IMG/VR virus record: IMGVR_UViG_2822120212_000001
Span: 45,704 to 65,703 of that record
Source: an uncultured virus (IMG/VR IMGVR_UViG_2822120212_000001)
Lineage: Duplodnaviria; Heunggongvirae; Uroviricota; Caudoviricetes
Strand: one strand, 5' to 3'
Length of the DNA stretch: 20,000 nucleotides
This document shows, piece after piece, positions 2 to 17,385 of this stretch. The translations under genes were made by a program, and so were the position numbers. Numbering within the stretch: the first letter of the stretch is position 1; each line of letters begins with the position of its first letter. The notes beneath the pieces were generated by a model that was not told where the DNA came from, searched no databases, and was given only the letters and a program-made list of their open reading frames with translations.

Positions 2-3000
2 ACACGAAGCCTTATCGATAGGTTATACGCACAAATCATGGGTAGCTTATCAAATAAAGCATCTAAAGAATTACTAGATTTGTTAGATAAGAAACTTCAA
101 GAAAATGTAACAGAAACAGAAGTCATTCGAAAAGAGTCGGAAGCAGCGAAGAAAATTGCTGAACAAGTGGCTGAAAACTTGAAGAATAATACCGTTGATA
201 TTATTGAAGGCGTAAATCCACCAACAGCAAACTTAAAGGATAGAAAGACGTTGTGGCAAGATATTAGTAAAGGGAAACCGGGTATTCTGAAATTGTGGAA
301 GGATGGCAAATGGGATCCTGTTATTCCTGATGTGGAATCCGTTAAGAAAGAAACGTTGGAACAAGTGAGCAAAGATATCGAGACCACAAAAAGCGAATTA
401 AATCAAAAGGTTCAAGAAGCGCAAAAACAAGCAACAGGGCAATTTAATGAAGTGAAAGAAAGCTTACAAGGTGTTAGTCGTATCATTTCTGATGTGCAAA
501 ATAAACAGGGTGAAATTGATAAAAAGGTAACAAAGTTTGAGCAGGATTCTAATGGGTTTAAATTATCTATTGAATCGTTAACTAAAAAAGATACTGATAT
601 CAGCAATAAATTAAATACAGTCGAGCAAACAGCGGAAGGTACGAAAAAGACAATTTCCTCTGTGCAAGAGACGATAAATAGTTTTGAATCAGGTTCAAGA
701 AACTTTCAGAAAAACGGTTCGTTTGCTGATGAAATACATGGATGGGGGCAATATGTAGCTTCTGGTCAACCGACAAATCAAAAACCAACACTTACGGTTA
801 TTGATGATAGTTTATCAGGTACAAAAAAAGCTGCAACAATTAAATTTATTGATAATTGGTCAAATGGTTTCTATAATCCACACACAGTGAAATTAACACC
901 AGGTGAAGAGTATACATGGTTCGTATTTCTTAAAGCTAACAAAGCTGGAAAGATTTCAGTCGGTAGCGAGCAAAGTGGTAGTGGTACTCGCATACTAGAC
1001 GTTACTACTACGGGAGCTTACTATTTTCATACTTTTAAAGCATCTGAAACCGGTGCATCAGCATTTAGGATATATTCGCTTGCAGAATTAAAAAACGTAG
1101 ATTTCTCTGTCACAGTAAAAGATTTAGTTCTTGTGAAAGGTAATATAAAACCTGCTGCATGGTTTCCTGCACCAGAAGATCAAGTTGCTCTACCAGATTT
1201 CAAAAAAGTAACAACTGAAATTACGGAGCAAGCTGGAAAGATTAGTGAGAAGTTAACAAGTGTAGAAAAGAAATTTGATGAGCAAGAAATAGGAGTGCGT
1301 AATTTAATATCAGACACGAAATATTGGGAAACAACACAAGTAGCTTCAAATTCAGCGTATGGAATATTTAAATATGATTTAAATCCATTGTTTAGTACAT
1401 TAGTTGAGCAAACTGTTACCTTCAGTTTCGAAGTGAAAATTATCACGAATGATAACACTGAGGGAAGGGTTCAATTTTATGGTGCTAATGGTTCTCCAAA
1501 ATATACTTTTGCTCAAAAAGTTTTTACAGGCATAAATAAAGATTTTCAGAGGGTTACTTACACTACTAAAATTCAGGAGATTCCTAGTAACGCTGGACAA
1601 GCAAGAATAGAGTTTTGGGGAATAGATGCTAAAACAACAAAAATCATTATTCAAAACTTTAAACTTGAAAAGGGGAACAAAGCCACTGGATGGACACCTG
1701 CACCAGAAGATCAAGTAACAAATGATGAATTCACAAAAAAAACAACCGAGATTGAAAAAAGTGTGATTGGAATCAAAGAAACAGTAACAAAAGTAGACAA
1801 TAATCAAAGTGGATTTGATAAGCGTGTAACAGCAGTAGAGAAAACCGCTGAAGGTATTTCTCAAAACGTTACCAAGTTACAAGAAACACAAACGACACAA
1901 GGTAAACAGATTACTGAAGCACAATCTACAATTAAACAACATTCTGATGCGCTGAATTTAGCTGTAAAAATGAAAGATGTTGAAGATTACGTTGGAGGAA
2001 TTGGTAACCAAACGGTTTTACGCAATGTTTTGTGGAAAAACGACACGAAATATTGGCAATTAACTTCAAACGCAGCAAGAGATACACAAGTAACTTATAA
2101 GGGGTGCAATTCACTTAGTGTTATCACTACAGGTAATGCGAGTAATTTGTATAAAGGGGCATCACACGATTATATAAACGCTGGGCCTGGATGGAATTAT
2201 GTTTTCTCTGCTTACTTTTATACAGATAATAAAGCTAGTATAGATGCCGGAGCTGCTATCGAACTTCAGTGTTACGATGTAAACAATAAAATGATTAAAA
2301 ATTACTTACAAGAAATAACTATTTCACAAGGTACATGGATTCGTACACATGTGGCAGGGCTATTAGTCGAAGGCACAAAGAAAGTTAAAGTGCTGTTTTG
2401 GGTTCGTAAAAATGGTCGTCTATGGATGGCGCAACCTATGCTACAAATTGGTGAAAAACCATCATCATTTATGGAAAATCCAGCTGATATTGCTGGTACG
2501 GATGAATTAATCGAAGAAGTGGGAAAGAAAGTAGCTACACTAGATTACAATCAGAAAACAACTGAACTAGAGCGTCTTATTTCTGCCAATGCGCAGGGGA
2601 TTAGTCTTGCTGCAGTAAAAAACGAAGTATATACAAAACAACAGGCTGACGGAAAATATGCGGATAAAGCGTATGTAGAAAAACAAGCAGGACGTATTGA
2701 CGTAACTGAAAAAGCGATTACTAGTACCGTCCAAAAAGGCGATATTATCTCGGCTATTAACCAGACGGCAGAACAGATTCAAATTGATGTTGCGAAGTTG
2801 AAAATCAACGCTGATACCATTGTAAAATGGCTCACTGCAACAGGTATTAATGCAGATGTAATTAAAATCGAAAATGGGAAAGTTACGATCGATAAGAATG
2901 GTATTACAGCAAAAATGGCTGACTTCTTTTTTGAAGATGAGCGCGGGCAGAAATTTTCAGTAACACCAAGAACGAATCTCATTCCAGATCATGACTTTTC

Positions 3001-3967
3001 ACACATTTCTTTTACTACTGTTAATAATAATTTTTTGAAGATCGAATACAGTCCTACATGGACAATTATGTCTAGTCCATATATTGAGAAACCAGTGGTT
3101 AATAATTATGAGCCAATGGTTAATCCGATGCGGATAGATTTAGGAAACTGGATTCGATTTACATTATTTGAAGGGGTAAAACCAGGTAAGAAATACACAT
3201 TGTCGGCTCATTTCAGAGCAACTACCAATGATAATCGTGTAAACATTACAAACAAGCCAATCATGAGAGCGGTATTCGGTAAATATAACGGTGACACTCC
3301 CGTGGAGCTTGGACGAGCATCAAAAACTTACGATGCACCAAGCATTCAAACTGGAAAAATAGTAAGATACGCTTTAACCTTCACTGTTCCGAGCAACTAT
3401 GTAGAAGGAAATGGGTATGTTTATATCGATTTATTTGGCGAGGGGCTCTTAAATAATATGCAAGCAATTGCTGTATCAGGTGTTCAGTTGGTGGAAGGTG
3501 ACGTTCCTTCCGTTTATAACTGGGATACAACACATGGACAACTCGTAAACGGAACACTGCCTTTTTCTACAATTGCACTTGGTACAAAAGATAATGTTAT
3601 TTACCACAATCATGTGAACAAATGGAACTATATGAATGCGCCACTTGAAATCATAAGTAATGGCGAAATGATGGCACTCGTTGGAAGCGATCGTGCAGGA
3701 CTCAGTTTTTATCCCCGTGGCGGTGGAGAACGTAGAAGTTACATCGGTCACATTTACAACAATGAAAATAGATTTCGGATTGAATCAAAAGATCCTGTTG
3801 CAACGACACAATCAATTGAATGTAATGGGATTAACGTATGTGGTGGATACTTTGGTGCTAATGCAGGTTCTATTCATTATACAAATGGTAGCTTAGGTTT
3901 AGGGTGGTATTTCCATGATGGCCGATGGAATTATGTTGATTTCACAAATATGACTTCTAGAACATAG
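2..3967 (+). CDS. Phage tail / minor structural (host-recognition) protein, 5'-truncated by the window edge
   Basis: Frame open from base 2 (TRSLIDRLYAQI before the ATG at 38). Coiled-coil spacers alternate with carbohydrate-binding-like modules (RN...KGN.....W.PAPEDQV); IISAINQTAEQIQIDVAKLKINA motif typical of siphophage tail proteins; lies just upstream of lysis genes. Confidence 0.88.
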   Translation, partial: TRSLIDRLYAQIMGSLSNKASKELLDLLDKKLQENVTETEVIRKESEAAKKIAEQVAENLKNNTVDIIEGVNPPTANLKDRKTLWQDISKGKPGILKLWKDGKWDPVIPDVESVKKETLEQVSKDIETTKSELNQKVQEAQKQATGQFNEVKESLQGVSRIISDVQNKQGEIDKKVTKFEQDSNGFKLSIESLTKKDTDISNKLNTVEQTAEGTKKTISSVQETINSFESGSRNFQKNGSFADEIHGWGQYVASGQPTNQKPTLTVIDDSLSGTKKAATIKFIDNWSNGFYNPHTVKLTPGEEYTWFVFLKANKAGKISVGSEQSGSGTRILDVTTTGAYYFHTFKASETGASAFRIYSLAELKNVDFSVTVKDLVLVKGNIKPAAWFPAPEDQVALPDFKKVTTEITEQAGKISEKLTSVEKKFDEQEIGVRNLISDTKYWETTQVASNSAYGIFKYDLNPLFSTLVEQTVTFSFEVKIITNDNTEGRVQFYGANGSPKYTFAQKVFTGINKDFQRVTYTTKIQEIPSNAGQARIEFWGIDAKTTKIIIQNFKLEKGNKATGWTPAPEDQVTNDEFTKKTTEIEKSVIGIKETVTKVDNNQSGFDKRVTAVEKTAEGISQNVTKLQETQTTQGKQITEAQSTIKQHSDALNLAVKMKDVEDYVGGIGNQTVLRNVLWKNDTKYWQLTSNAARDTQVTYKGCNSLSVITTGNASNLYKGASHDYINAGPGWNYVFSAYFYTDNKASIDAGAAIELQCYDVNNKMIKNYLQEITISQGTWIRTHVAGLLVEGTKKVKVLFWVRKNGRLWMAQPMLQIGEKPSSFMENPADIAGTDELIEEVGKKVATLDYNQKTTELERLISANAQGISLAAVKNEVYTKQQADGKYADKAYVEKQAGRIDVTEKAITSTVQKGDIISAINQTAEQIQIDVAKLKINADTIVKWLTATGINADVIKIENGKVTIDKNGITAKMADFFFEDERGQKFSVTPRTNLIPDHDFSHISFTTVNNNFLKIEYSPTWTIMSSPYIEKPVVNNYEPMVNPMRIDLGNWIRFTLFEGVKPGKKYTLSAHFRATTNDNRVNITNKPIMRAVFGKYNGDTPVELGRASKTYDAPSIQTGKIVRYALTFTVPSNYVEGNGYVYIDLFGEGLLNNMQAIAVSGVQLVEGDVPSVYNWDTTHGQLVNGTLPFSTIALGTKDNVIYHNHVNKWNYMNAPLEIISNGEMMALVGSDRAGLSFYPRGGGERRSYIGHIYNNENRFRIESKDPVATTQSIECNGINVCGGYFGANAGSIHYTNGSLGLGWYFHDGRWNYVDFTNMTSRT

Positions 3968-12156: not shown

Positions 12157-12531
12157 TTAAATCTCTGTTAATAGCTTGAATTTCCTTTTCTGTTCAGGTG
12201 TTAGCTCATTTTCTACATAGCGATCTATAAGTAAATCGATGATCTCATAAGCAAATTTTGTGTTTGTAAGTTTCATTAATACTTCTAGTTCTTCTTTTGA
12301 TTGATTAGAAATTTTAATGCTACCTTGTTGATTTTTAAATTTCTTTTTTGATTCAATTTTTTCGTTTCTTTTTTCTTTTCGAGTTACTTGTTTTTCTTCA
12401 GTCTTAGGTTGAGAAGGCGTAGCTGGAACCTCGTTATTTTCCACTACAGCTTGTCCTTGCTCTGGTACATAAGGCTCAGTAGGTTCAAAGTTACTTTTCT
12501 TTCTACCTAACAAACCAGGAGTTCTCGCCAT
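12157..12531 (-). CDS. Type Ib partition centromere-binding adaptor (ParB/ParG-like)
   Basis: Directly downstream of parA; likely ATG 12531 (MARTPGLLGRKK); disordered N-terminus and ribbon-helix-helix-like C-terminus. Confidence 0.7.
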   Translation of the reverse strand: MARTPGLLGRKKSNFEPTEPYVPEQGQAVVENNEVPATPSQPKTEEKQVTRKEKRNEKIESKKKFKNQQGSIKISNQSKEELEVLMKLTNTKFAYEIIDLLIDRYVENELTPEQKRKFKLLTEI

Positions 12532-12532
12532 T

Positions 12533-13354
12533 TTACACACCAACCTTCATTTTTTCAAACATATCAATACGAGATAGCAATTCATCACTAATCGTTTCGT
12601 ATAGTTCAATTACATTCATATCATGTCTATCTTTTTCAGTAATACCATTCACATCAAATCGTTTAATACGTTCCATTTGAGGGACGATGTTTTTAAATAG
12701 GTTTTCTTCACCGAAAATTTCACGAGCATTTTCCATGATATATTCGTCAACCTTACCGTTGTTTTTTAATAGGACAGGAAGAACACCAACTACTTCAATA
12801 TCAAGATCATATTGCTCTTTTAGCTTAATAAGTTCATTAACATAATTCTCAGCACCAGTTAGAGAACGCTCTTGAGTTTGCAAAGCAATTAGAACATAAT
12901 CAGAAGCTACAACGGCGTTCTTTGTAACTTCTAGTGACATTGGAGGAACATCGATAAATATGTAGTCGTATTTATGCTTTATCTTTTCAAGTAATCCTTT
13001 AAAGTAATGATCTTCTTCAGCTTCCGAAGAACAATTTTTATAAAGGAATTTTGCGAAATCTTGAAAATCAACGTAAGAAGGAAGTAAATGTAAGTTCTCC
13101 ATAATTTCCACTTCTAAGCCGTCTAGGTTCCCCTCTTGTATTCCCTTCATTAATGTTTTTTCTACTGTAACAATTTCATCAGGGTTAAGAATGGATTTTG
13201 TTAACATTAAAGACTTTGTTGCGTTACTTTGTGGATCAAGGTCAACAAGTAATGTACGCTTGCCCTTTTTAGCAAATTCATAAGAGTTCAATACAGCATT
13301 TGTGGTTTTACCGACTCCACCTTTGTAATTACCTACCGTAATTGTAATAGCCAT
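12533..13354 (-). CDS. parA: ParA/Soj-family partition ATPase (no N-terminal HTH, type Ib)
   Basis: NYKGGVGKTT deviant Walker A, LVDLDPQSNAT, YIFIDVPP; RBS GGAG before ATG 13354. Confidence 0.95.
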   Translation of the reverse strand: MAITITVGNYKGGVGKTTNAVLNSYEFAKKGKRTLLVDLDPQSNATKSLMLTKSILNPDEIVTVEKTLMKGIQEGNLDGLEVEIMENLHLLPSYVDFQDFAKFLYKNCSSEAEEDHYFKGLLEKIKHKYDYIFIDVPPMSLEVTKNAVVASDYVLIALQTQERSLTGAENYVNELIKLKEQYDLDIEVVGVLPVLLKNNGKVDEYIMENAREIFGEENLFKNIVPQMERIKRFDVNGITEKDRHDMNVIELYETISDELLSRIDMFEKMKVGV

Positions 13355-13382
13355 TTTTAACACTCCAGTTATATTATTTAAA

Positions 13383-13473
13383 ATTTCCCTATATCCCTTT
13401 ATAGAAATAGGGAAAAATAGAAATAGGGAAATAGGGATATTTCTAACTATAGAAATAGGGATATTTCTATATC
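13383..13473. repeat. parS/operator-like cluster I of AAATAGGG / ATAGAAAT motifs
   Basis: ATAGAAATAGGGAAAAATAGAAATAGGGAAATAGGGATATTTC... upstream of parA. Confidence 0.8.
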
Positions 13474-13640
13474 TTTAAAGAAATTATAACAATGATATTT
13501 GGGTTATGCAATAGAATCATAGAGTTAGTAATTAATAACAAAAACGTTGGTATCAAAAGATTATTTTGATGTATGAAGTAGAGAGAGTTAAGAAACAAAT
13601 ATGTAATTTCGTAGAGATGTTAGTAGAGGCAAAAATAATT

Positions 13641-13724
13641 AAAATAGGGAAATATAGATATAGGGAAAAGGGGAAATATCCCTATATCTATAAGTGGAAA
13701 TAGGGAAATAGGGAAATAGGGATA
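13641..13724. repeat. parS/operator-like cluster II of AAATAGGG motifs
   Basis: AAATAGGGAAATATAGATATAGGGAAAAGGGGAAATATCCCTATATC...GGAAATAGGGAAATAGGGAAATAGGGATAT (8-bp period). Confidence 0.8.
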
Positions 13725-13751
13725 TTATTCAAAAAGTGCGTAAATTCGCTG

Positions 13752-13780
13752 TTTACAAAGGATAAAGCTTGTTGTAACGT
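13752..13780 (+). promoter_or_regulatory. sigmaA-type promoter firing into the ORF-free region
   Basis: TTTACA-N17-TAACGT. Confidence 0.5.
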
Positions 13781-13888
13781 AGTACACAACAAGCACCATT
13801 CTACAAAACAAAACATAATTTGATATTTTACATAAACGAAGATCATGAAGATCGATAGAGCAAAATCAAAACAATTGAATATGAACAG

Positions 13889-14064
13889 AAAACAAAAAGC
13901 CACTCCATTTGCTATCGGCTACCAACCTTTAGCGGAGTGACTCAGTTCTAGTAATTGCTACCAACACTTACTAGAATGAACTGTATTAACCCACAGTGTT
14001 TACGTTTAAGTAGTGTACCATCACTTTCTTAAACAACTATGCCTTTTCACGAGGCTTCTTTGAT
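13889..14064 (-). ncRNA. Putative antisense copy-control RNA (~175 nt, three UGGUA-loop hairpins)
   Basis: Own promoter at 14071-14099; three hairpins; last one followed by TTTTTGTTTT on the minus strand; a stem mismatch on plus is a G-U pair on minus. Confidence 0.65.
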
Positions 14065-14070
14065 ATACCC

Positions 14071-14099
14071 ATTTTATCTATTGTTTGGATAAATATCAA
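14071..14099 (-). promoter_or_regulatory. sigmaA promoter of the antisense RNA
   Basis: Minus strand TTGATA-N17-TAAAAT. Confidence 0.7.
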
Positions 14100-14148
14100 C
14101 TAGTAAATACTAGTTTTGATTATTTTGTAGTCCAAAAGATATATAACG

Positions 14149-14219
14149 GGCATCTCTAAGCCTAGAAGTCTTGTGATGTACAGGCCATTTAGGGAATTAG
14201 AGATGCCTTTTTGTTTTTT
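14149..14219 (+). terminator. Long hairpin with U-tract, possible attenuator
   Basis: GGCATCTCTAA (14149-14159) / TTAGAGATGCC (14197-14207) then TTTTTGTTTTTT. Confidence 0.55.
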
Positions 14220-14224
14220 GTTCG

Positions 14225-14850
14225 CGTGGAATTGCCTGAAACCACGTAAATAAAACTGATAAGCCGTGATTCCGTGCTTCTATATAGAGGGAACGTGTTA
14301 CGGCGTGGCTAGCTGTTGGTCGTGCAGGGGGTACAGAGTATACGCCTACAAAAACAGCACCCCTCATTGGAATCCTGTTCTTCTGGTGAGGGTGGGCGAG
14401 AACTTGCCCAGGGACGATTCTCTAAAAGGTTCGGGTGGTTATCGTTAGCATTACGGTGCTAGGGAGTACATTCAGTTTGTCGTGTAGGGACGATATTACA
14501 AGGACAAGCCATAGTAAAAGGATGTATGCGGTGAAAATCGCTGAGTGAACAGGGTCTATACATACGGATACCTTATAAGTGACCGCATGGCGAAAACAAA
14601 GACGCTTATCCATCTATTTTGACTGATTACTTTTTTTGTAGTCTTTCAAAGTAGGGGATAAATCTGCCTTCCAGCCGTATTCCATAATCGTTCCCACATG
14701 ATAAAAACCCTCAAGACCTTCAGTCAAGCGTAACTGTGAAGAAAGGATGAAAAACATGAGTTTGTTTAACTTTTGGGGGAATGACTTACTAAGATAGAGG
14801 AATAAATAAGGGATTTACTATTTACTTGGTTAAAGGATAAGGGGACGGAT
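14225..14850 (+). ncRNA. Putative large structured non-coding RNA / replication-origin region
   Basis: GC-rich island with no RBS-backed ORF; nested long-range pairings, UACG and GAAA tetraloop hairpins, G-U pairs favouring the plus strand. Confidence 0.55.
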
Positions 14851-15124
14851 GATTAAAATATTTCCTATTGCAGAATTTGGTTTTACATATCGGATATAGT
14901 ACGTGAAATTAAACTTATATAATTTTAGTTTGATTGGTATATGGTGATATTCTAGCAGTTGATGAAAAAGCACGTTGAGAAGTGATGAAGTAAACAGAAA
15001 AAATATTGTTAGAAGATGTAGTGGTTAACCTCAGTAAACAAAAATTAACTTTTATTGTATATTTTGAAAATAGATATTAATTAAGGTAATCTTAATTTAA
15101 ACTAATAAGGGGAGGGATATCATT

Positions 15125-16066
15125 GTGAAAGTATTTAAATTAACTACAGAAAGTCATGCTCTTTTAGATTTGAATGAACAGAGCTGGGAAACTACTATTG
15201 CTTATTATGAGAAGGAAACTCATAAGAGAGCGCCCTATTATTGTGATCTAAAAAAGAAAACCAGATATTTTGCTGTTTGTCCTGGTTGTAATAATCCGGT
15301 TCAATTAGTAAATTTGTATGTTAATAAGAAATTACCAGGCAACGAAAAGAAGCAATCCCCACATGCTAAACATCAACCGCATTCAGTTATTGGAATAGCA
15401 ACCTATTATCAAGAAAAGTACGATACCTGTGAATTGAGACAGAGAACACCCTTCAGTGATACTGAGAAAAGAGCTGGAACGGAAGTACCAAATGAAATAT
15501 TGCAGCTCATACAACGATATCCAGACATTTTATATAAACATATACGAAAAATAATAGGTATCAATTTTTCTAGACGCGTATTTGAGCGCATGATTGATAA
15601 TTTTCTTCGTGCAAATGGACATTGTTATAAGCGTATTAATAAATTTAATTTGCCGTATGCTTTTCTATATATGCAAAAAAGTACAAGAATTATTAATCAA
15701 CATATTACAGAAGGTCATGCTTATCAAAAAGAAATAATTGATTGTATACAAAATAGTAAATATTTTACTGTATCTGATAATAAAATTACACCTATTAACC
15801 CGAAGGTTGATGGATTTGTAGAAATTGATTTTTACTTAACAAAACATAAAATAACACCAATTAAAAATATGATTACTCTCTGTATTACTGAATCTAAGGG
15901 AGGGGAAGTTGATAGTTTATTAGAAAAGGAATTTCCAGTAAATGAATCTGATTATATAAATGATATCAACGAGGCGATGGACAATGGGGATAATGAAATG
16001 GATAGTAATAAAGCTAGATCTCAATTGAGAGAGATGGTACTCAATTGCATTGAAAAAAATAAGTGA
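15125..16066 (+). CDS. Hypothetical protein with N-terminal CxxC...H...C metal-binding motif
   Basis: RBS AAGGGGAGGG, GTG start; FAVCPGCNNPVQL, PHAKH, TCEL; low GC. Confidence 0.8.
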   Translation: MKVFKLTTESHALLDLNEQSWETTIAYYEKETHKRAPYYCDLKKKTRYFAVCPGCNNPVQLVNLYVNKKLPGNEKKQSPHAKHQPHSVIGIATYYQEKYDTCELRQRTPFSDTEKRAGTEVPNEILQLIQRYPDILYKHIRKIIGINFSRRVFERMIDNFLRANGHCYKRINKFNLPYAFLYMQKSTRIINQHITEGHAYQKEIIDCIQNSKYFTVSDNKITPINPKVDGFVEIDFYLTKHKITPIKNMITLCITESKGGEVDSLLEKEFPVNESDYINDINEAMDNGDNEMDSNKARSQLREMVLNCIEKNK

Positions 16067-16793: not shown

Positions 16794-17229
16794 TATATAG
16801 ATTTATTTATATTTTATCTATATAGTTAAATTGTCTGTTATTTTTTTTAATTCATTTATTTATTTTATTTTTGTGCGCTCCAGCAATGGAGCCTTTTTTT
16901 ATGCAATAAAACATTTTCTTTGCGTTATTTAGTTGATCTATATTAACTTTACCTTCTTAAATTATATCTATATTTTACCAAGTAATTATATAGATAACCA
17001 GTTTTTTCTAATAATCTATTTGATAAATAACTTTAATGTTATTTATTATTTGTATATTATTATGTTATAATGGTAATCTCTAAAACTACCCAAAAAAGGC
17101 TGCCAGTAATGGTGGTCTTTTTTATATTGGTGAGATTGTACTAGTATGATAGAATAGAATTAACTGTATATTGTGAGGGTGATTGGTTATCCCTTCTTTC
17201 CATTTGGAAGGAAAGGGGGTGATATACCT

Positions 17230-17385
17230 ATGGAGTTTTTGTTTGAGCTTCTAAAAGAATTTGTGAAAGCCATTGTACGTGAAGTTTCTGCGTATGTTTT
17301 TAGGAAACAAATTTTAGAAAAAGATAACAAAAAACCCACTCCTCGTCGCCGTCGGAAGCAAAAGGGTGGGTTTCGTAAAAAATAA
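17230..17385 (+). CDS. Putative type I toxin peptide (51 aa)
   Basis: ATG 17230 after RBS AAGGGGGTGA that can be sequestered by a 5' hairpin; amphipathic N-terminus and very basic tail; promoter TTGGTG-N17-TAGAAT (17127-17155); terminator 17421-17450. Confidence 0.65.
   Translation: MEFLFELLKEFVKAIVREVSAYVFRKQILEKDNKKPTPRRRRKQKGGFRKK

What the first reader, a model, noticed from the sequence alone, without database searches (positions are those of the whole stretch)
14225..14850. Two large nested RNA domains with tetraloops and strand-specific G-U pairs
Seen: domain 1 closed by GATAAGC (14258-14264) / GCTTATC (14604-14610), containing GCTGTT/AACAGC, CCCTCA..TGAGGG, TGGGCGAG-AA-CTTGCCCA (14393-14410), TAGCAT-TACG-GTGCTA (14446-14461) and GCGGT-GAAA-ATCGC (14528-14541), with an alternative ATGCGGT/ACCGCAT pairing. 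Domain 2 nests ATCTGCCTT (14662) / GGGGACGGAT (14841-14850), TATTCC (14678) / GGAATA (14799) and TCGTTCCC (14688) / GGGAATGA (14777). Inference: a ~600-nt plus-strand structured RNA (primer, ribozyme or unclassified large ncRNA). I do not recognise group I/II intron cores.
Basis: partly seen in the sequence, partly recalled or inferred. Interest (0 to 1): 0.78.

Follow-up and report, generated by a model that had tools for sequence, protein, structure and literature searches.

The report
Plasmid-borne pseudoknotted RNA, likely replication module
A roughly 440-base, tightly folded RNA with two pseudoknots sits in a gene-free stretch of a Bacillus phage-plasmid and of many unrelated small plasmids that have no recognisable replication protein, so it probably forms the core of their replication machinery.

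Summary
Window 14225-14665 (+ strand) folds into 13 helices, two of them pseudoknots. On 27 diverse homologues 94.5% of pair cells are standard pairs, against 38-44% when partners are slid. 60 of 103 pairs show compensatory changes. G-U cells outnumber A-C cells 344 to 26. The fold z-score is -3.97 on + and -0.97 on -.

No Rfam 15 family matches. The RNA occurs on 101 PLSDB plasmids, 73 viral contigs, and genome and metagenome contigs from Bacillus, Peribacillus, Paenibacillus, Planococcus and others. It is always in non-coding DNA and has no constant protein neighbour. The smallest carrier is a ~4.56-kb circle with no recognisable Rep. In B. cereus FRI-35 p03 a rep gene occupies the same slot beside the same parAB.

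Best reading (about 0.55): it is the RNA core of a ~1.17-kb replication and copy-control module that encodes no protein. It may be the ori1030/pHT1030 type. That link is recalled, not tested.

The parts
13745..14913 (+). Gene-free module (~1.17 kb) that moves as a unit between phage-plasmids carrying different partition genes
   Evidence: In one search, records H160-H165 match only query 1646/1653-2811/2814, which is window 13745/13752-14910/14913. The close-relative alignment breaks at about 14918. No ORF above 71 aa lies inside it.
14149..14219 (+). Hairpin 0 (GGCATCTCTAA 14149-59 / TTAGAGATGCC 14197-207) plus a T-run at 14208-19. It looks like a terminator or attenuator just 5' of the RNA.
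   Evidence: Present, with changed stem sequences, in 19 of 27 aligned members, read off alignment A1. U-G pairs in L012 and L007 fall on the + strand. The 8 members without it include the 7 that have a tyrosine-recombinase gene directly upstream.
14225..14246 (+). P1 hairpin, with conserved loop AAUUGCCUGAAA
   Evidence: helix 1: 3 of 5 pairs compensatory, 88.9% paired. The misses are 4 rows that are misaligned. GCC in the loop is invariant.
14260..14305 (+). Variable insertion hairpin. It is not part of the conserved core.
   Evidence: Present in 12 of 27 representatives and absent in 15. Folded as a hairpin in the MFE structure.
14312..14358 (+). P2 (14312-17/14353-58) enclosing P3 (14327-33/14341-47)
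   Evidence: helices 2 and 3: 5 of 6 and 5 of 7 pairs compensatory.
14361..14392 (+). P4, a 12-bp hairpin. Its loop CCURUUC (14374-80) forms pseudoknot PK-A.
   Evidence: helix 4: 8 of 12 compensatory, 99.1% paired.
14374..14553 (+). Pseudoknot PK-A: P4 loop 14374-14380 pairs with GAAYRGG 14547-14553 (7 bp)
   Evidence: 27 of 27 sequences are paired at all 7 positions. 14377/14550 is A-U in 22 and G-C in 5. 14376/14551 is U-A in 25, C-G in 1 and U-G in 1.
14393..14432 (+). P5 (14393-14410, loop GAGAAC); optional P5a (14410-23); possible PK GAAC 14400-03 x GUUC 14429-32
   Evidence: P5 variants read off the alignment. P5a is present in 13 of 27. The GAAC/GUUC helix is invariant in 27 of 27, so covariation gives no evidence either way (helix 6).
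14440..14495 (+). Pseudoknot PK-B: 14440-14444 pairs with the P10 loop 14491-14495 (UAUCG/CGAUA in some members, AGCCA/UGGCU in others)
   Evidence: helix 7: 5 of 5 pairs compensatory, 100% paired. It crosses P8 and P9.
14445..14462 (+). P7 hairpin with a UACG loop
   Evidence: helix 8: 5 of 7 compensatory, 99.5% paired.
14466..14527 (+). P8 (14466-73/14520-27), P9 (14475-81/14503-09), P10 (14483-87/14496-500)
   Evidence: helices 9-11: 5 of 8, 3 of 8 and 3 of 4 compensatory; 95.8-99.5% paired.
14528..14541 (+). P11 hairpin with a GNRA (GAAA) loop
   Evidence: helix 12: 5 of 5 compensatory. G-U pairs fall on the + strand.
14600..14665 (+). P12, a long irregular hairpin. The base (UUAUCC/GGAUAA) is nearly invariant; the apex (14618-57) is variable and covarying.
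   Evidence: helix 13: 11 of 25 compensatory, 85.8% paired. The apex is the most variable part of the RNA among 84 close relatives (0.077 against 0.00-0.05 elsewhere).
14666..14728 (.). Conserved 3' block. On the minus strand, 14727-14698 reads TTGACT-18-TATCAT (promoter-like). It could drive a ~100-nt antisense RNA across P12.
   Evidence: scores it 10 of 12. At the same place it scores 10/12 in 11 of 26 representatives and at least 8/12 in 18 of 26. On the minus strand the P12 complement is followed by UUUGUUUUC in the window, but this tail is not universal. The function is inferred.
14783..14844 (.). Two direct repeats of the type ACCACTAAC-TAAGATAGAGGA (14783-14812, and a degenerate copy at 14821-14844)
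   Evidence: TAAGATA lies downstream of the RNA in 15 of 26 representatives, often as two copies. The role is unknown: origin site, protein site or the 3' part of the RNA.
14071..14146 (.). Divergent promoter-like region: minus-strand TTGATA-17-TAAAAT (14099-14071), palindrome CTAGTAAATACTAG (14100-14113), plus-strand TTGATT-18-TATATA (14116-14145)
   Evidence: One search lists the minus-strand site at 10/12. A CAACTAGTAA-type motif lies upstream in 16 of 26 representatives, found with a crude regex.
13889..13942 (-). Minus-strand terminator-like hairpin (13942-13899) plus a U-run (13898-13889). With the promoter at 14099-14071 it would bound a ~165-nt minus-strand small RNA.
   Evidence: The same hairpin, with changed stem letters, is seen in L100 and L009. 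The single mismatch is C.A on the + strand and U.G on the - strand (read). Inferred, not counted across the family.

Best explanation
Window 14225-14665 encodes a plus-strand, roughly 440-nt RNA. It has ten covarying hairpin or stem elements and two covarying pseudoknots.

I read it as the cis-acting core of a ~1.17-kb replication and copy-control module (13745-14913) that encodes no protein. The module is used by Bacillaceae plasmids and phage-plasmids that have no initiator protein of their own for the plasmid state.

Proposed mechanism (inferred, by analogy with ColE1-type replicons):
- The RNA is transcribed rightwards from the divergent promoter region at about 14116-14145, through hairpin 0, which acts as an attenuator.
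- It folds into the compact pseudoknotted body.
- It runs into P12 and the conserved block 14666-14728, where it primes or licenses DNA synthesis by host enzymes.
- A short antisense RNA from the conserved minus-strand promoter (14727-14698) pairs with the variable apex of P12 and sets copy number and incompatibility.

Shown: the RNA structure, its strand, its plasmid-only and gene-independent distribution, and its positional equivalence to a rep gene.

Inferred: transcription start and end, priming, and antisense control.
For: Structure and strand:
- 103 pairs, 94.5% of cells paired against 37.7-43.6% when partners are slid.
- 60 pairs have compensatory changes, against 19-27 when slid. 0 of 500 shuffles reach any measure.
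- G-U 344 against A-C 26; 94.2% paired on +, 82.3% if read on -.
- Fold z-score -3.97 on +, -0.97 on -.
- G+C is 0.44-0.48 against 0.25-0.35 in the flanks.
- No coding signal. Variable sites by codon position are 11/11/17, 14/18/11 and 11/13/11.

Distribution:
- 101 PLSDB plasmids, from about 7 to 260 kb among the rows listed, with no annotated feature under any listed match.
- 73 viral-contig, 18 genome-contig and 29 metagenome loci, 2 of the last being chance matches.
- All 18 genome contigs are 129 kb or shorter.
- Only 1 of 91 genomes in one host's family carries it.

No constant protein partner:
- The commonest neighbouring protein clusters are found in only 9 of 26 representative loci.
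- The whole 65.7-kb record has no tblastn hit to the small-plasmid clusters A, B or I.

Carriers without a recognisable Rep:
- L135 is a 4,632-nt contig with a 77-nt terminal overlap, so a circle of about 4.56 kb. Besides the RNA it holds only a 189-aa HTH/RHH-like protein, a 124-aa HTH protein, an 87-aa ORF and a serine recombinase.
- Three 7.3-7.6-kb plasmids have no Rep-family Pfam hit.
- 9 of 11 PLSDB carriers I inspected have no MOB-suite replicon type.

Module swap:
- B. cereus FRI-35 p03 shares parA, parB and both repeat arrays up to window ~13836.
- It then carries a 492-aa PriCT_1 'replication protein' gene where the window carries the RNA module.

Other context:
- The RNA lies beside partition genes (window) or directly downstream of a tyrosine-recombinase gene (7 of 26 representative loci), which is the usual setting of a basic replicon. 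Serine-recombinase genes lie within 3 kb in 5 of 26.
- Divergent copies coexist in one isolate (94% and 70% identity).
- The P12 apex is the most variable paired region.
- Analogous precedent: ARRPOF lies in a gene-free 1-kb region that is sufficient for replication of pKH9 (passages of PMC5737381).
Against: - There is no direct test of replication.
- No clearly conserved plus-strand promoter was found.
- The antisense promoter scores 10/12 in only 11 of 26 representatives. Peribacillus-type members have no good match at that position, and the U-tail after the P12 complement is not universal.
- On the minus strand P12 is weakened by A.C mismatches.
- Two pseudoknots and GNRA/UNCG-type loops are more elaborate than known primer RNAs. 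That fits a ribozyme or a protein- or RNA-assembly role equally well.
- All small carriers encode the uncharacterised cluster A and/or B proteins, and some encode a small HTH_36/DnaD_N-like protein (4 of 26). These could be unrecognised initiators.
- According to PMC8026635 (passages), related plasmid-prophage groups encode their own replication initiators. I did not annotate the part of this record outside the window.
- GC skew of the record is uninformative.
- DnaA-box-like matches are at chance level: 101 against 86.8 +/- 9.
- RNA-library contigs cover the region but give no strand or ends.
Confidence: 0.55

Rival explanations
1. It is a large 'ornate' non-coding RNA carried as cargo by mobile elements, with a role other than replication. 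Examples would be plasmid maintenance or addiction, interference with host or competing elements, or an RNA-only or RNA-protein assembly as in ROOL, GOLLD and OLE.
For: The tertiary design is elaborate: two covarying pseudoknots, a GNRA loop and a UACG loop, and invariant single-stranded blocks. It occurs on phage-plasmids, plasmids and one phage record, like ROOL and GOLLD. Related plasmid-prophage groups have their own replication initiators (PMC8026635 passages). Two copies lie on one metagenome contig.
Against: No Rfam family matches, ROOL, GOLLD, OLE and raiA included. A ~4.56-kb plasmid with no recognisable Rep gives about a quarter of its length to the non-coding RNA locus. The RNA occupies the positional slot of a rep gene beside the same parAB. 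It was not found on Mb-scale contigs.
Confidence: 0.25
2. The element works as folded single-stranded DNA: a single-strand origin or primosome-assembly site for lagging-strand synthesis. In that case it is not a transcript.
For: Covariation cannot by itself tell RNA from ssDNA. The authors of the plasmid motifs ARRPOF and GEBRO raise the same possibility (PMC5737381 passages). The structure is strand-specific, as single-strand origins are.
Against: No rolling-circle Rep (Rep_1, Rep_2 or Rep_trans) was found in five complete small carriers. Carriers reach 50-260 kb, which is not rolling-circle size. There are 344 G-U (G-T) cells. GNRA- and UNCG-type loops are RNA stability motifs; that point rests on established knowledge, not on a test here. 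At ~440 nt with two pseudoknots it is far larger than the roughly 150-300-nt single-strand origins I recall.
Confidence: 0.07
3. It is a cis-regulatory leader or attenuator controlling a downstream gene, such as the 313-aa ORF at 15125-16066.
For: A terminator-like hairpin 0 sits at the 5' side. A plus-strand ORF follows about 400 nt downstream of the conserved block.
Against: Homology to other carriers ends at about 14913, before that ORF. Downstream genes differ between carriers: GIY-YIG, HTH_36, small ORFs or none. No downstream protein cluster occurs in more than 4 of 26 loci.
Confidence: 0.05
4. It is a chance fold or a decayed protein-coding gene.
For: ORFs of 56-63 aa overlap the region.
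Against: Compensatory changes occur in 60 of 103 pairs. There is no third-codon-position excess. 33 alignment columns carry indels within the ORF span in close relatives. The ORFs are kept in only 5-6 of 26 loci.
Confidence: 0.01

Closest known systems
ColE1/pMB1-type replicon (pre-primer RNA II with antisense RNA I)
   Same: A gene-free region of about 1 kb. A long structured transcript is proposed to lead into the origin. A short antisense RNA with a strong constitutive-type promoter is proposed as the copy-number and incompatibility determinant. Small carriers appear as high-coverage contigs.
   Different: The hosts differ (Bacillales rather than Enterobacteria). There is no sequence or Rfam relationship. 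This RNA is pseudoknotted and far more constrained. The candidate antisense RNA covers the 3' hairpin, not the 5' end. Priming and RNase H processing are untested.
ori1030 of Bacillus thuringiensis plasmid pHT1030 (basis of the pHT304/315/370 and pBS0E vectors)
   Same: [quoted passage not shown] The title and citation were seen in the reference list of PMC13001229. Use of the vectors was seen in passages of PMC10101014 and PMC5678133.
   Different: I could obtain neither the sequence of ori1030 nor any text on its mechanism (searches; supplement unreadable). Identity is therefore untested. No source I saw describes an RNA structure for it.
ARRPOF, PAGEV and GEBRO plasmid-associated RNA/ssDNA motifs (Weinberg et al. 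2017)
   Same: They are moderately long structured motifs on plasmids thought to act in replication. ARRPOF lies in a gene-free 1-kb region sufficient for pKH9 replication (passages).
   Different: They come from other phyla and are 223-349 nt long. No Rfam family at all matched the window or five small carriers. I did not check that these three motifs are among the 4,227 models searched. No pseudoknots are mentioned in the passages I read.
pAMbeta1-family theta replicons (Rep with PriCT_1, origin downstream of rep)
   Same: It occupies the same slot next to the same parAB and repeat arrays in B. cereus FRI-35 p03. From established knowledge, this family uses the rep transcript as primer.
   Different: That system needs a Rep protein of about 490 aa. 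The module here encodes none.
ROOL, GOLLD and OLE large ornate bacterial RNAs
   Same: They are large, highly structured RNAs. ROOL and GOLLD are often found on phages and mobile elements.
   Different: None scored, even at E up to 10. This RNA is smaller than those classes as I recall them. Its distribution is strictly plasmid or phage-plasmid.

Membership tests
Any Rfam 15 family (searched as a whole library; ROOL, GOLLD, OLE, raiA, ARRPOF, Bacillus-plasmid RF01691, RNAI and group I/II introns were the ones I had in mind) | Covariance-model score at or above the family's gathering threshold | tested here: not met
   0 matches at gathering score over the whole window. Only chance-level snoRNA, miRNA and sRNA hits at E up to 10 in 13300-15200. 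0 matches at E up to 0.5 in five complete small carriers, 38.4 kb in all.
ColE1-type RNA-primed replicon | Replication of a gene-free fragment without a plasmid-encoded initiator | tested here: inconclusive
   No recognisable Rep in a ~4.56-kb carrier or in three ~7.5-kb carriers.
ColE1-type RNA-primed replicon | Antisense RNA overlapping the 5' end of the pre-primer | tested here: not met
   The candidate antisense promoter lies at the 3' end (14727-14698). It scores 10/12 in 11 of 26 representatives. Nothing comparable was found opposite the 5' end.
ColE1-type RNA-primed replicon | RNA-DNA hybrid at the origin, RNase H processing, Pol I extension | not testable with these tools
   Needs biochemical or genetic mapping.
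ori1030 / pHT1030 replicon | Sequence identity to the published pHT1030 replication region | not testable with these tools
   No ori1030 sequence is in any collection or paper I could read.
Single-strand origin (sso) of rolling-circle plasmids | The carrier encodes a rolling-circle Rep and a double-strand origin | tested here: not met
   No Rep_1, Rep_2 or Rep_trans hit in the proteins of the small carriers L001, L002, L003 and L135. Many carriers are 50-260 kb.
Intrinsic protein-coding gene (decayed) | Third-codon-position excess of substitutions and frame-preserving indels | tested here: not met
   Variable sites by codon position are 11/11/17, 14/18/11 and 11/13/11. 33 columns carry gaps.

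The most novel reading that the evidence does not exclude
This is a self-sufficient RNA origin in Gram-positive bacteria. A ~440-nt double-pseudoknotted RNA, with no plasmid-encoded initiator protein, recruits or activates host replication enzymes. It may cut itself to create the primer end. It therefore defines a new replicon class shared by small plasmids and tailed phage-plasmids, and it may be the unexplained basis of the widely used ori1030 vectors.
Probability: 0.3. Interest if true: 0.88.

Novelty: new variant of a known kind. Interest (0 to 1): 0.7.

Why it matters
It would give a replication mechanism to a large set of Bacillus cereus-group phage-plasmids and small cryptic plasmids. 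Of the 11 carriers I inspected, 9 have no replicon type.

It adds a strongly supported, large, pseudoknotted RNA class to the short list of such bacterial RNAs, which is of interest for structural work.

If it proves to be the ori1030 type, it would explain how a standard family of Bacillus cloning vectors replicates and controls copy number, and would let those properties be engineered rationally.

The modular exchange of a protein-based replicon for an RNA-based one beside the same partition genes is also a clean natural experiment in how plasmid backbones are built.

Tried and rejected
- **Rfam.** Gathering and permissive scans found nothing.
- **P1-loop pseudoknot.** My first model paired the P1 loop (CCUG) with YAGG. 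I replaced it with the P4-loop pairing, which is 7 bp and 27 of 27 paired. The P1 loop is complementary to the same target (25-27 of 27 paired; L073 has a matching C/G change), so it may be an alternative partner. This is unresolved.
- **All-against-all covariation scan.** It gave many isolated column pairs caused by shared ancestry. I used only runs of adjacent pairs.
- **DnaA boxes.** The TTATCC motifs in P12 are 2-mismatch matches, and the window total is at chance.
- **GC skew.** In the 65.7-kb record it follows gene orientation and does not mark the RNA.
- **Shared protein partner.** Clusters A and MerR/DUF3967 are unrelated by hhalign, apart from a 23-column HTH stretch at probability 2%.
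- **RNA libraries.** 15 of 23 holder rows are RNA runs, at 0.22-0.30 of sampled words. Contigs laid from 3 of 4 runs cover the region. One 321-nt contig spans exactly 14354-14675, and one 3.6-kb contig has depth 616. Contigs give no strand, ends or proof of transcription.
- **Literature on ori1030/pHT1030.** Searches gave only citations and vector usage. The supplement of PMC5678133 was unreadable. PMC3026805 lists other small Bt plasmids as rolling-circle or unknown.
- **E. coli genomes.** Searched for a shuttle-vector copy: no match.
- **Scripts that fell short.** My script to count hairpin 0 failed, because flanking A- and T-runs paired. My regexes for upstream motifs were crude.
- **Prior description.** A search for a prior description of such an RNA found only the general motif-discovery papers.
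Full report
**Setting.** The window is the last 20 kb of a 65.7-kb IMG/VR virus record with a 20-nt terminal repeat. It carries:
- a tail-fibre-like ORF at 2-3967, identified only by its size and place;
- an amidase endolysin (Pfam);
- FtsK- and Replic_Relax-type proteins;
- a MerR/DUF3967 protein;
- a parA gene with a small DUF5388-like partner gene on the minus strand (12157-13363).

It is close to the ~50-56-kb plasmid-prophages of the Bacillus cereus group.

The finding lies in a 1.7-kb gap between parA and a 313-aa ORF of unknown family. The longest ORFs inside 14197-14613 are 56-63 aa. G+C rises to 0.44-0.48, against 0.25-0.35 around it.

- On the refined core, 14225-14667, the asymmetry is strong. 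The + strand gives -143.9 kcal/mol, z -3.97, 0 of 100 shuffles as good. The - strand gives -101.4 kcal/mol, z -0.97, 20 of 100.

**Relatives.**
- blastn found the region on 101 PLSDB plasmids: 98 Bacillus, and one each of Peribacillus, Pseudalkalibacillus and Planococcus. A second query added Sutcliffiella. Nothing is annotated under any listed match.
- One phage record also carries it.
- A pattern built from three invariant blocks found 73 viral contigs, 18 species-representative genome contigs (Bacillus, Peribacillus, Paenibacillus; all 129 kb or shorter) and 29 metagenome loci.
- Two metagenome loci (L110 and a near-identical one) did not align and were dropped as chance matches.
- The true members form 26 clusters at 88% identity. 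The window's own cluster has 92 members.

**Structure.** I aligned one sequence per cluster plus phage C30-2, 27 in all (alignment A2).
- RNAalifold predicted 81 pairs, 44 of them with compensatory changes.
- My curated model has 103 pairs in 13 helices. 94.5% of cells are standard pairs, against 37.7-43.6% when the 3' partners are slid by 1-3 columns.
- 60 pairs carry double changes, against 19-27 when slid. That is 341 cells against 38-64. No shuffle out of 500 reaches any measure.
- The helices are P1, P2/P3, P4, P5, P7, P8/P9/P10, P11 (GAAA loop) and the long hairpin P12. Coordinates are in the parts list.
- Pseudoknot PK-B pairs 14440-44 with the P10 loop at 14491-95. All five pairs are compensatory and 100% paired.
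- Pseudoknot PK-A pairs the P4 loop (14374-80) with the invariant-looking block GAAYRGG (14547-53). It is 7 bp, with 27 of 27 sequences paired at every position. It switches A-U (22) to G-C (5) at one position and has a C-G variant at another.
- A third possible pseudoknot, GAAC with GUUC, never varies, so it stays open.
- G-U cells outnumber A-C cells 344 to 26, which fixes the plus strand.
- There is no coding signature.

- The segment 14260-14305, which holds the 5' strand of the proposed closing helix, is an insertion. 15 of 27 representatives lack it.
- The alternative ATGCGGT/ACCGCAT pairing is broken by a change that P11 tolerates.
- The three helices of 'domain 2' show breaks but no pair in which both sides changed to another Watson-Crick pair, across 84 distinct close relatives.
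- Variability rises from 0.00-0.05 inside 14218-14617 to 0.10-0.21 beyond 14718.
- Distant relatives stop aligning at about 14728.

**Known families.** No Rfam 15 family reaches threshold in the window. Permissive scans give only chance hits. Five complete small carriers give nothing at E up to 0.5.

**Context and function.**
- *No constant neighbour.* Among 26 representative loci with up to 3 kb of flank on each side, where the contig allowed, the commonest clusters are:
  - a ~190-aa HTH/RHH-like protein (9 of 26);
  - a ~93-aa HTH_3 protein (9 of 26);
  - a tyrosine recombinase directly upstream on the same strand (7 of 26, plus a shorter fragment farther upstream in an eighth);
  - MerR/DUF3967 (5);
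  - serine resolvase (5);
  - a small HTH_36/DnaD_N-like protein (4);
  - ParA (3).

  The whole 65.7-kb record has no tblastn hit to the small-plasmid clusters.
- *Carriers without a known Rep.* The smallest carrier is a 4,632-nt contig with a 77-nt terminal overlap, so a circle of about 4.56 kb. Besides the RNA it holds only four ORFs of 87 aa or more, and none is a known Rep. Three 7.3-7.6-kb plasmids also lack any Rep-family Pfam hit. 9 of 11 PLSDB carriers I inspected have no MOB-suite replicon type.
- *The module moves as a unit.* Phage-plasmids with other partition genes share only window 13745/13752-14910/14913.
- *The module replaces a rep gene.* B. cereus FRI-35 plasmid p03 shares parA, its partner gene and both AAATAGGGA repeat arrays up to window ~13836. 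It then carries a 492-aa PriCT_1 'replication protein' gene in the place of the RNA module. This swap is the strongest single argument that the RNA module supplies the replication function.
- *Sporadic spread.* The element was found in 1 of 91 genomes of one host's family.
- *Coexisting variants.* Divergent copies coexist in one isolate. The apex of P12 is the most variable paired part.

**Mechanistic model (inferred).**
- A divergent promoter-like region lies upstream. It has a palindrome at 14100-14113, a minus-strand TTGATA-17-TAAAAT, and a weak plus-strand TTGATT-18-TATATA.
- Hairpin 0 with a U-run (14149-14219) follows. It is present in 19 of 27 members.
- Downstream of P12, the conserved block reads on the minus strand as TTGACT-18-TATCAT. 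At that place it scores 10/12 in 11 of 26 representatives and at least 8/12 in 18 of 26.
- Together with the P12 complement and a U-tract, this could give a ~100-nt antisense RNA.
- Two ACCACTAAC-TAAGATAGAGGA repeats follow.
- I therefore propose a ColE1-like logic: a structured pre-primer, antisense control at a variable hairpin, and host enzymes doing the synthesis. None of the transcription or priming steps has been shown.

**Prior knowledge.** The closest analogues in print are the plasmid motifs ARRPOF, PAGEV and GEBRO (passages of PMC5737381) and, from established knowledge, ColE1 RNA II/RNA I.

From memory, the pHT1030/ori1030 replicon of B. thuringiensis was described in 1992 as a novel Gram-positive replicon without a Rep ORF. 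I saw only its citation and the use of its vectors. I could not obtain its sequence, so identity is untested. My searches for a description of this RNA found none. Supplements that I could not read might hold vector sequences that bear on this.

**Verdict.** This is a real RNA family of about 440 nt with two pseudoknots, uncatalogued in Rfam 15 and carried on plasmids. Most likely (about 0.55) it is the core of a replication and copy-control module that encodes no protein. The second domain and the closing helix are not.

Noticed in passing
window 13380-13470 and 13640-13725: Two arrays of AAATAGGGA-type repeats, direct and inverted, lie upstream of parA. They are shared almost base for base with B. 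cereus FRI-35 p03, which has a Rep gene instead of the RNA. They therefore probably belong to the partition system (centromere), not to the RNA module.
   Followed up: partly
window 13889-14099, minus strand: This is a candidate ~165-nt minus-strand small RNA. It has a promoter-like TTGATA-17-TAAAAT (14099-14071) and a terminator-like hairpin (13942-13899) with a U-run. The hairpin recurs with changed stem letters in Peribacillus and Pseudalkalibacillus relatives.
   Followed up: partly
window 14100-14113: A perfect palindrome, CTAGTAAATACTAG, lies between the divergent promoter-like sites. A CAACTAGTAA-type motif lies upstream of the RNA in 16 of 26 representatives. It may be an operator.
   Followed up: partly
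window 14783-14844: Two direct repeats of the type ACCACTAAC-TAAGATAGAGGA lie downstream of the RNA. They are conserved in distant relatives (TAAGATA in 15 of 26). They could be origin or protein-binding sites.
   Followed up: partly
window 15125-16066 (+): A 313-aa ORF with a CxxC-containing N-terminal part has no Pfam or NCBIfam match. It lies outside the conserved module.
   Followed up: no
L105/L106 (one 11,045-nt metagenome contig): Two copies of the RNA, 85.7% identical, lie on one contig. This may be a cointegrate or a two-replicon plasmid.
   Followed up: no
L036, L048, L084 (three contigs of one isolate genome): One isolate carries three copies of the RNA on separate contigs. Two are 94% alike and the third is about 70% alike to them. 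This would fit compatible variants of one replicon type.
   Followed up: partly
L135 1192-1761 (-) and relatives (alignment A3): A ~190-aa protein family is found on all the small carriers. It has an N-terminal HTH-like part, a low-complexity middle and a conserved C-terminal RVYRGFYWDKDII..NKSDL motif that looks like a ribbon-helix-helix. It has no Pfam or NCBIfam match.
   Followed up: partly
window 17173-17385 (+): A 70-aa ORF has a weak, sub-threshold match to the epsilon antitoxin family (E 0.008).
   Followed up: no
L073, L091, L109, L117, L123, L124, L126: In a sub-family the RNA follows directly after a Xer-like tyrosine-recombinase gene on the same strand and lacks hairpin 0. It may be co-transcribed with the recombinase gene.
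   Followed up: partly
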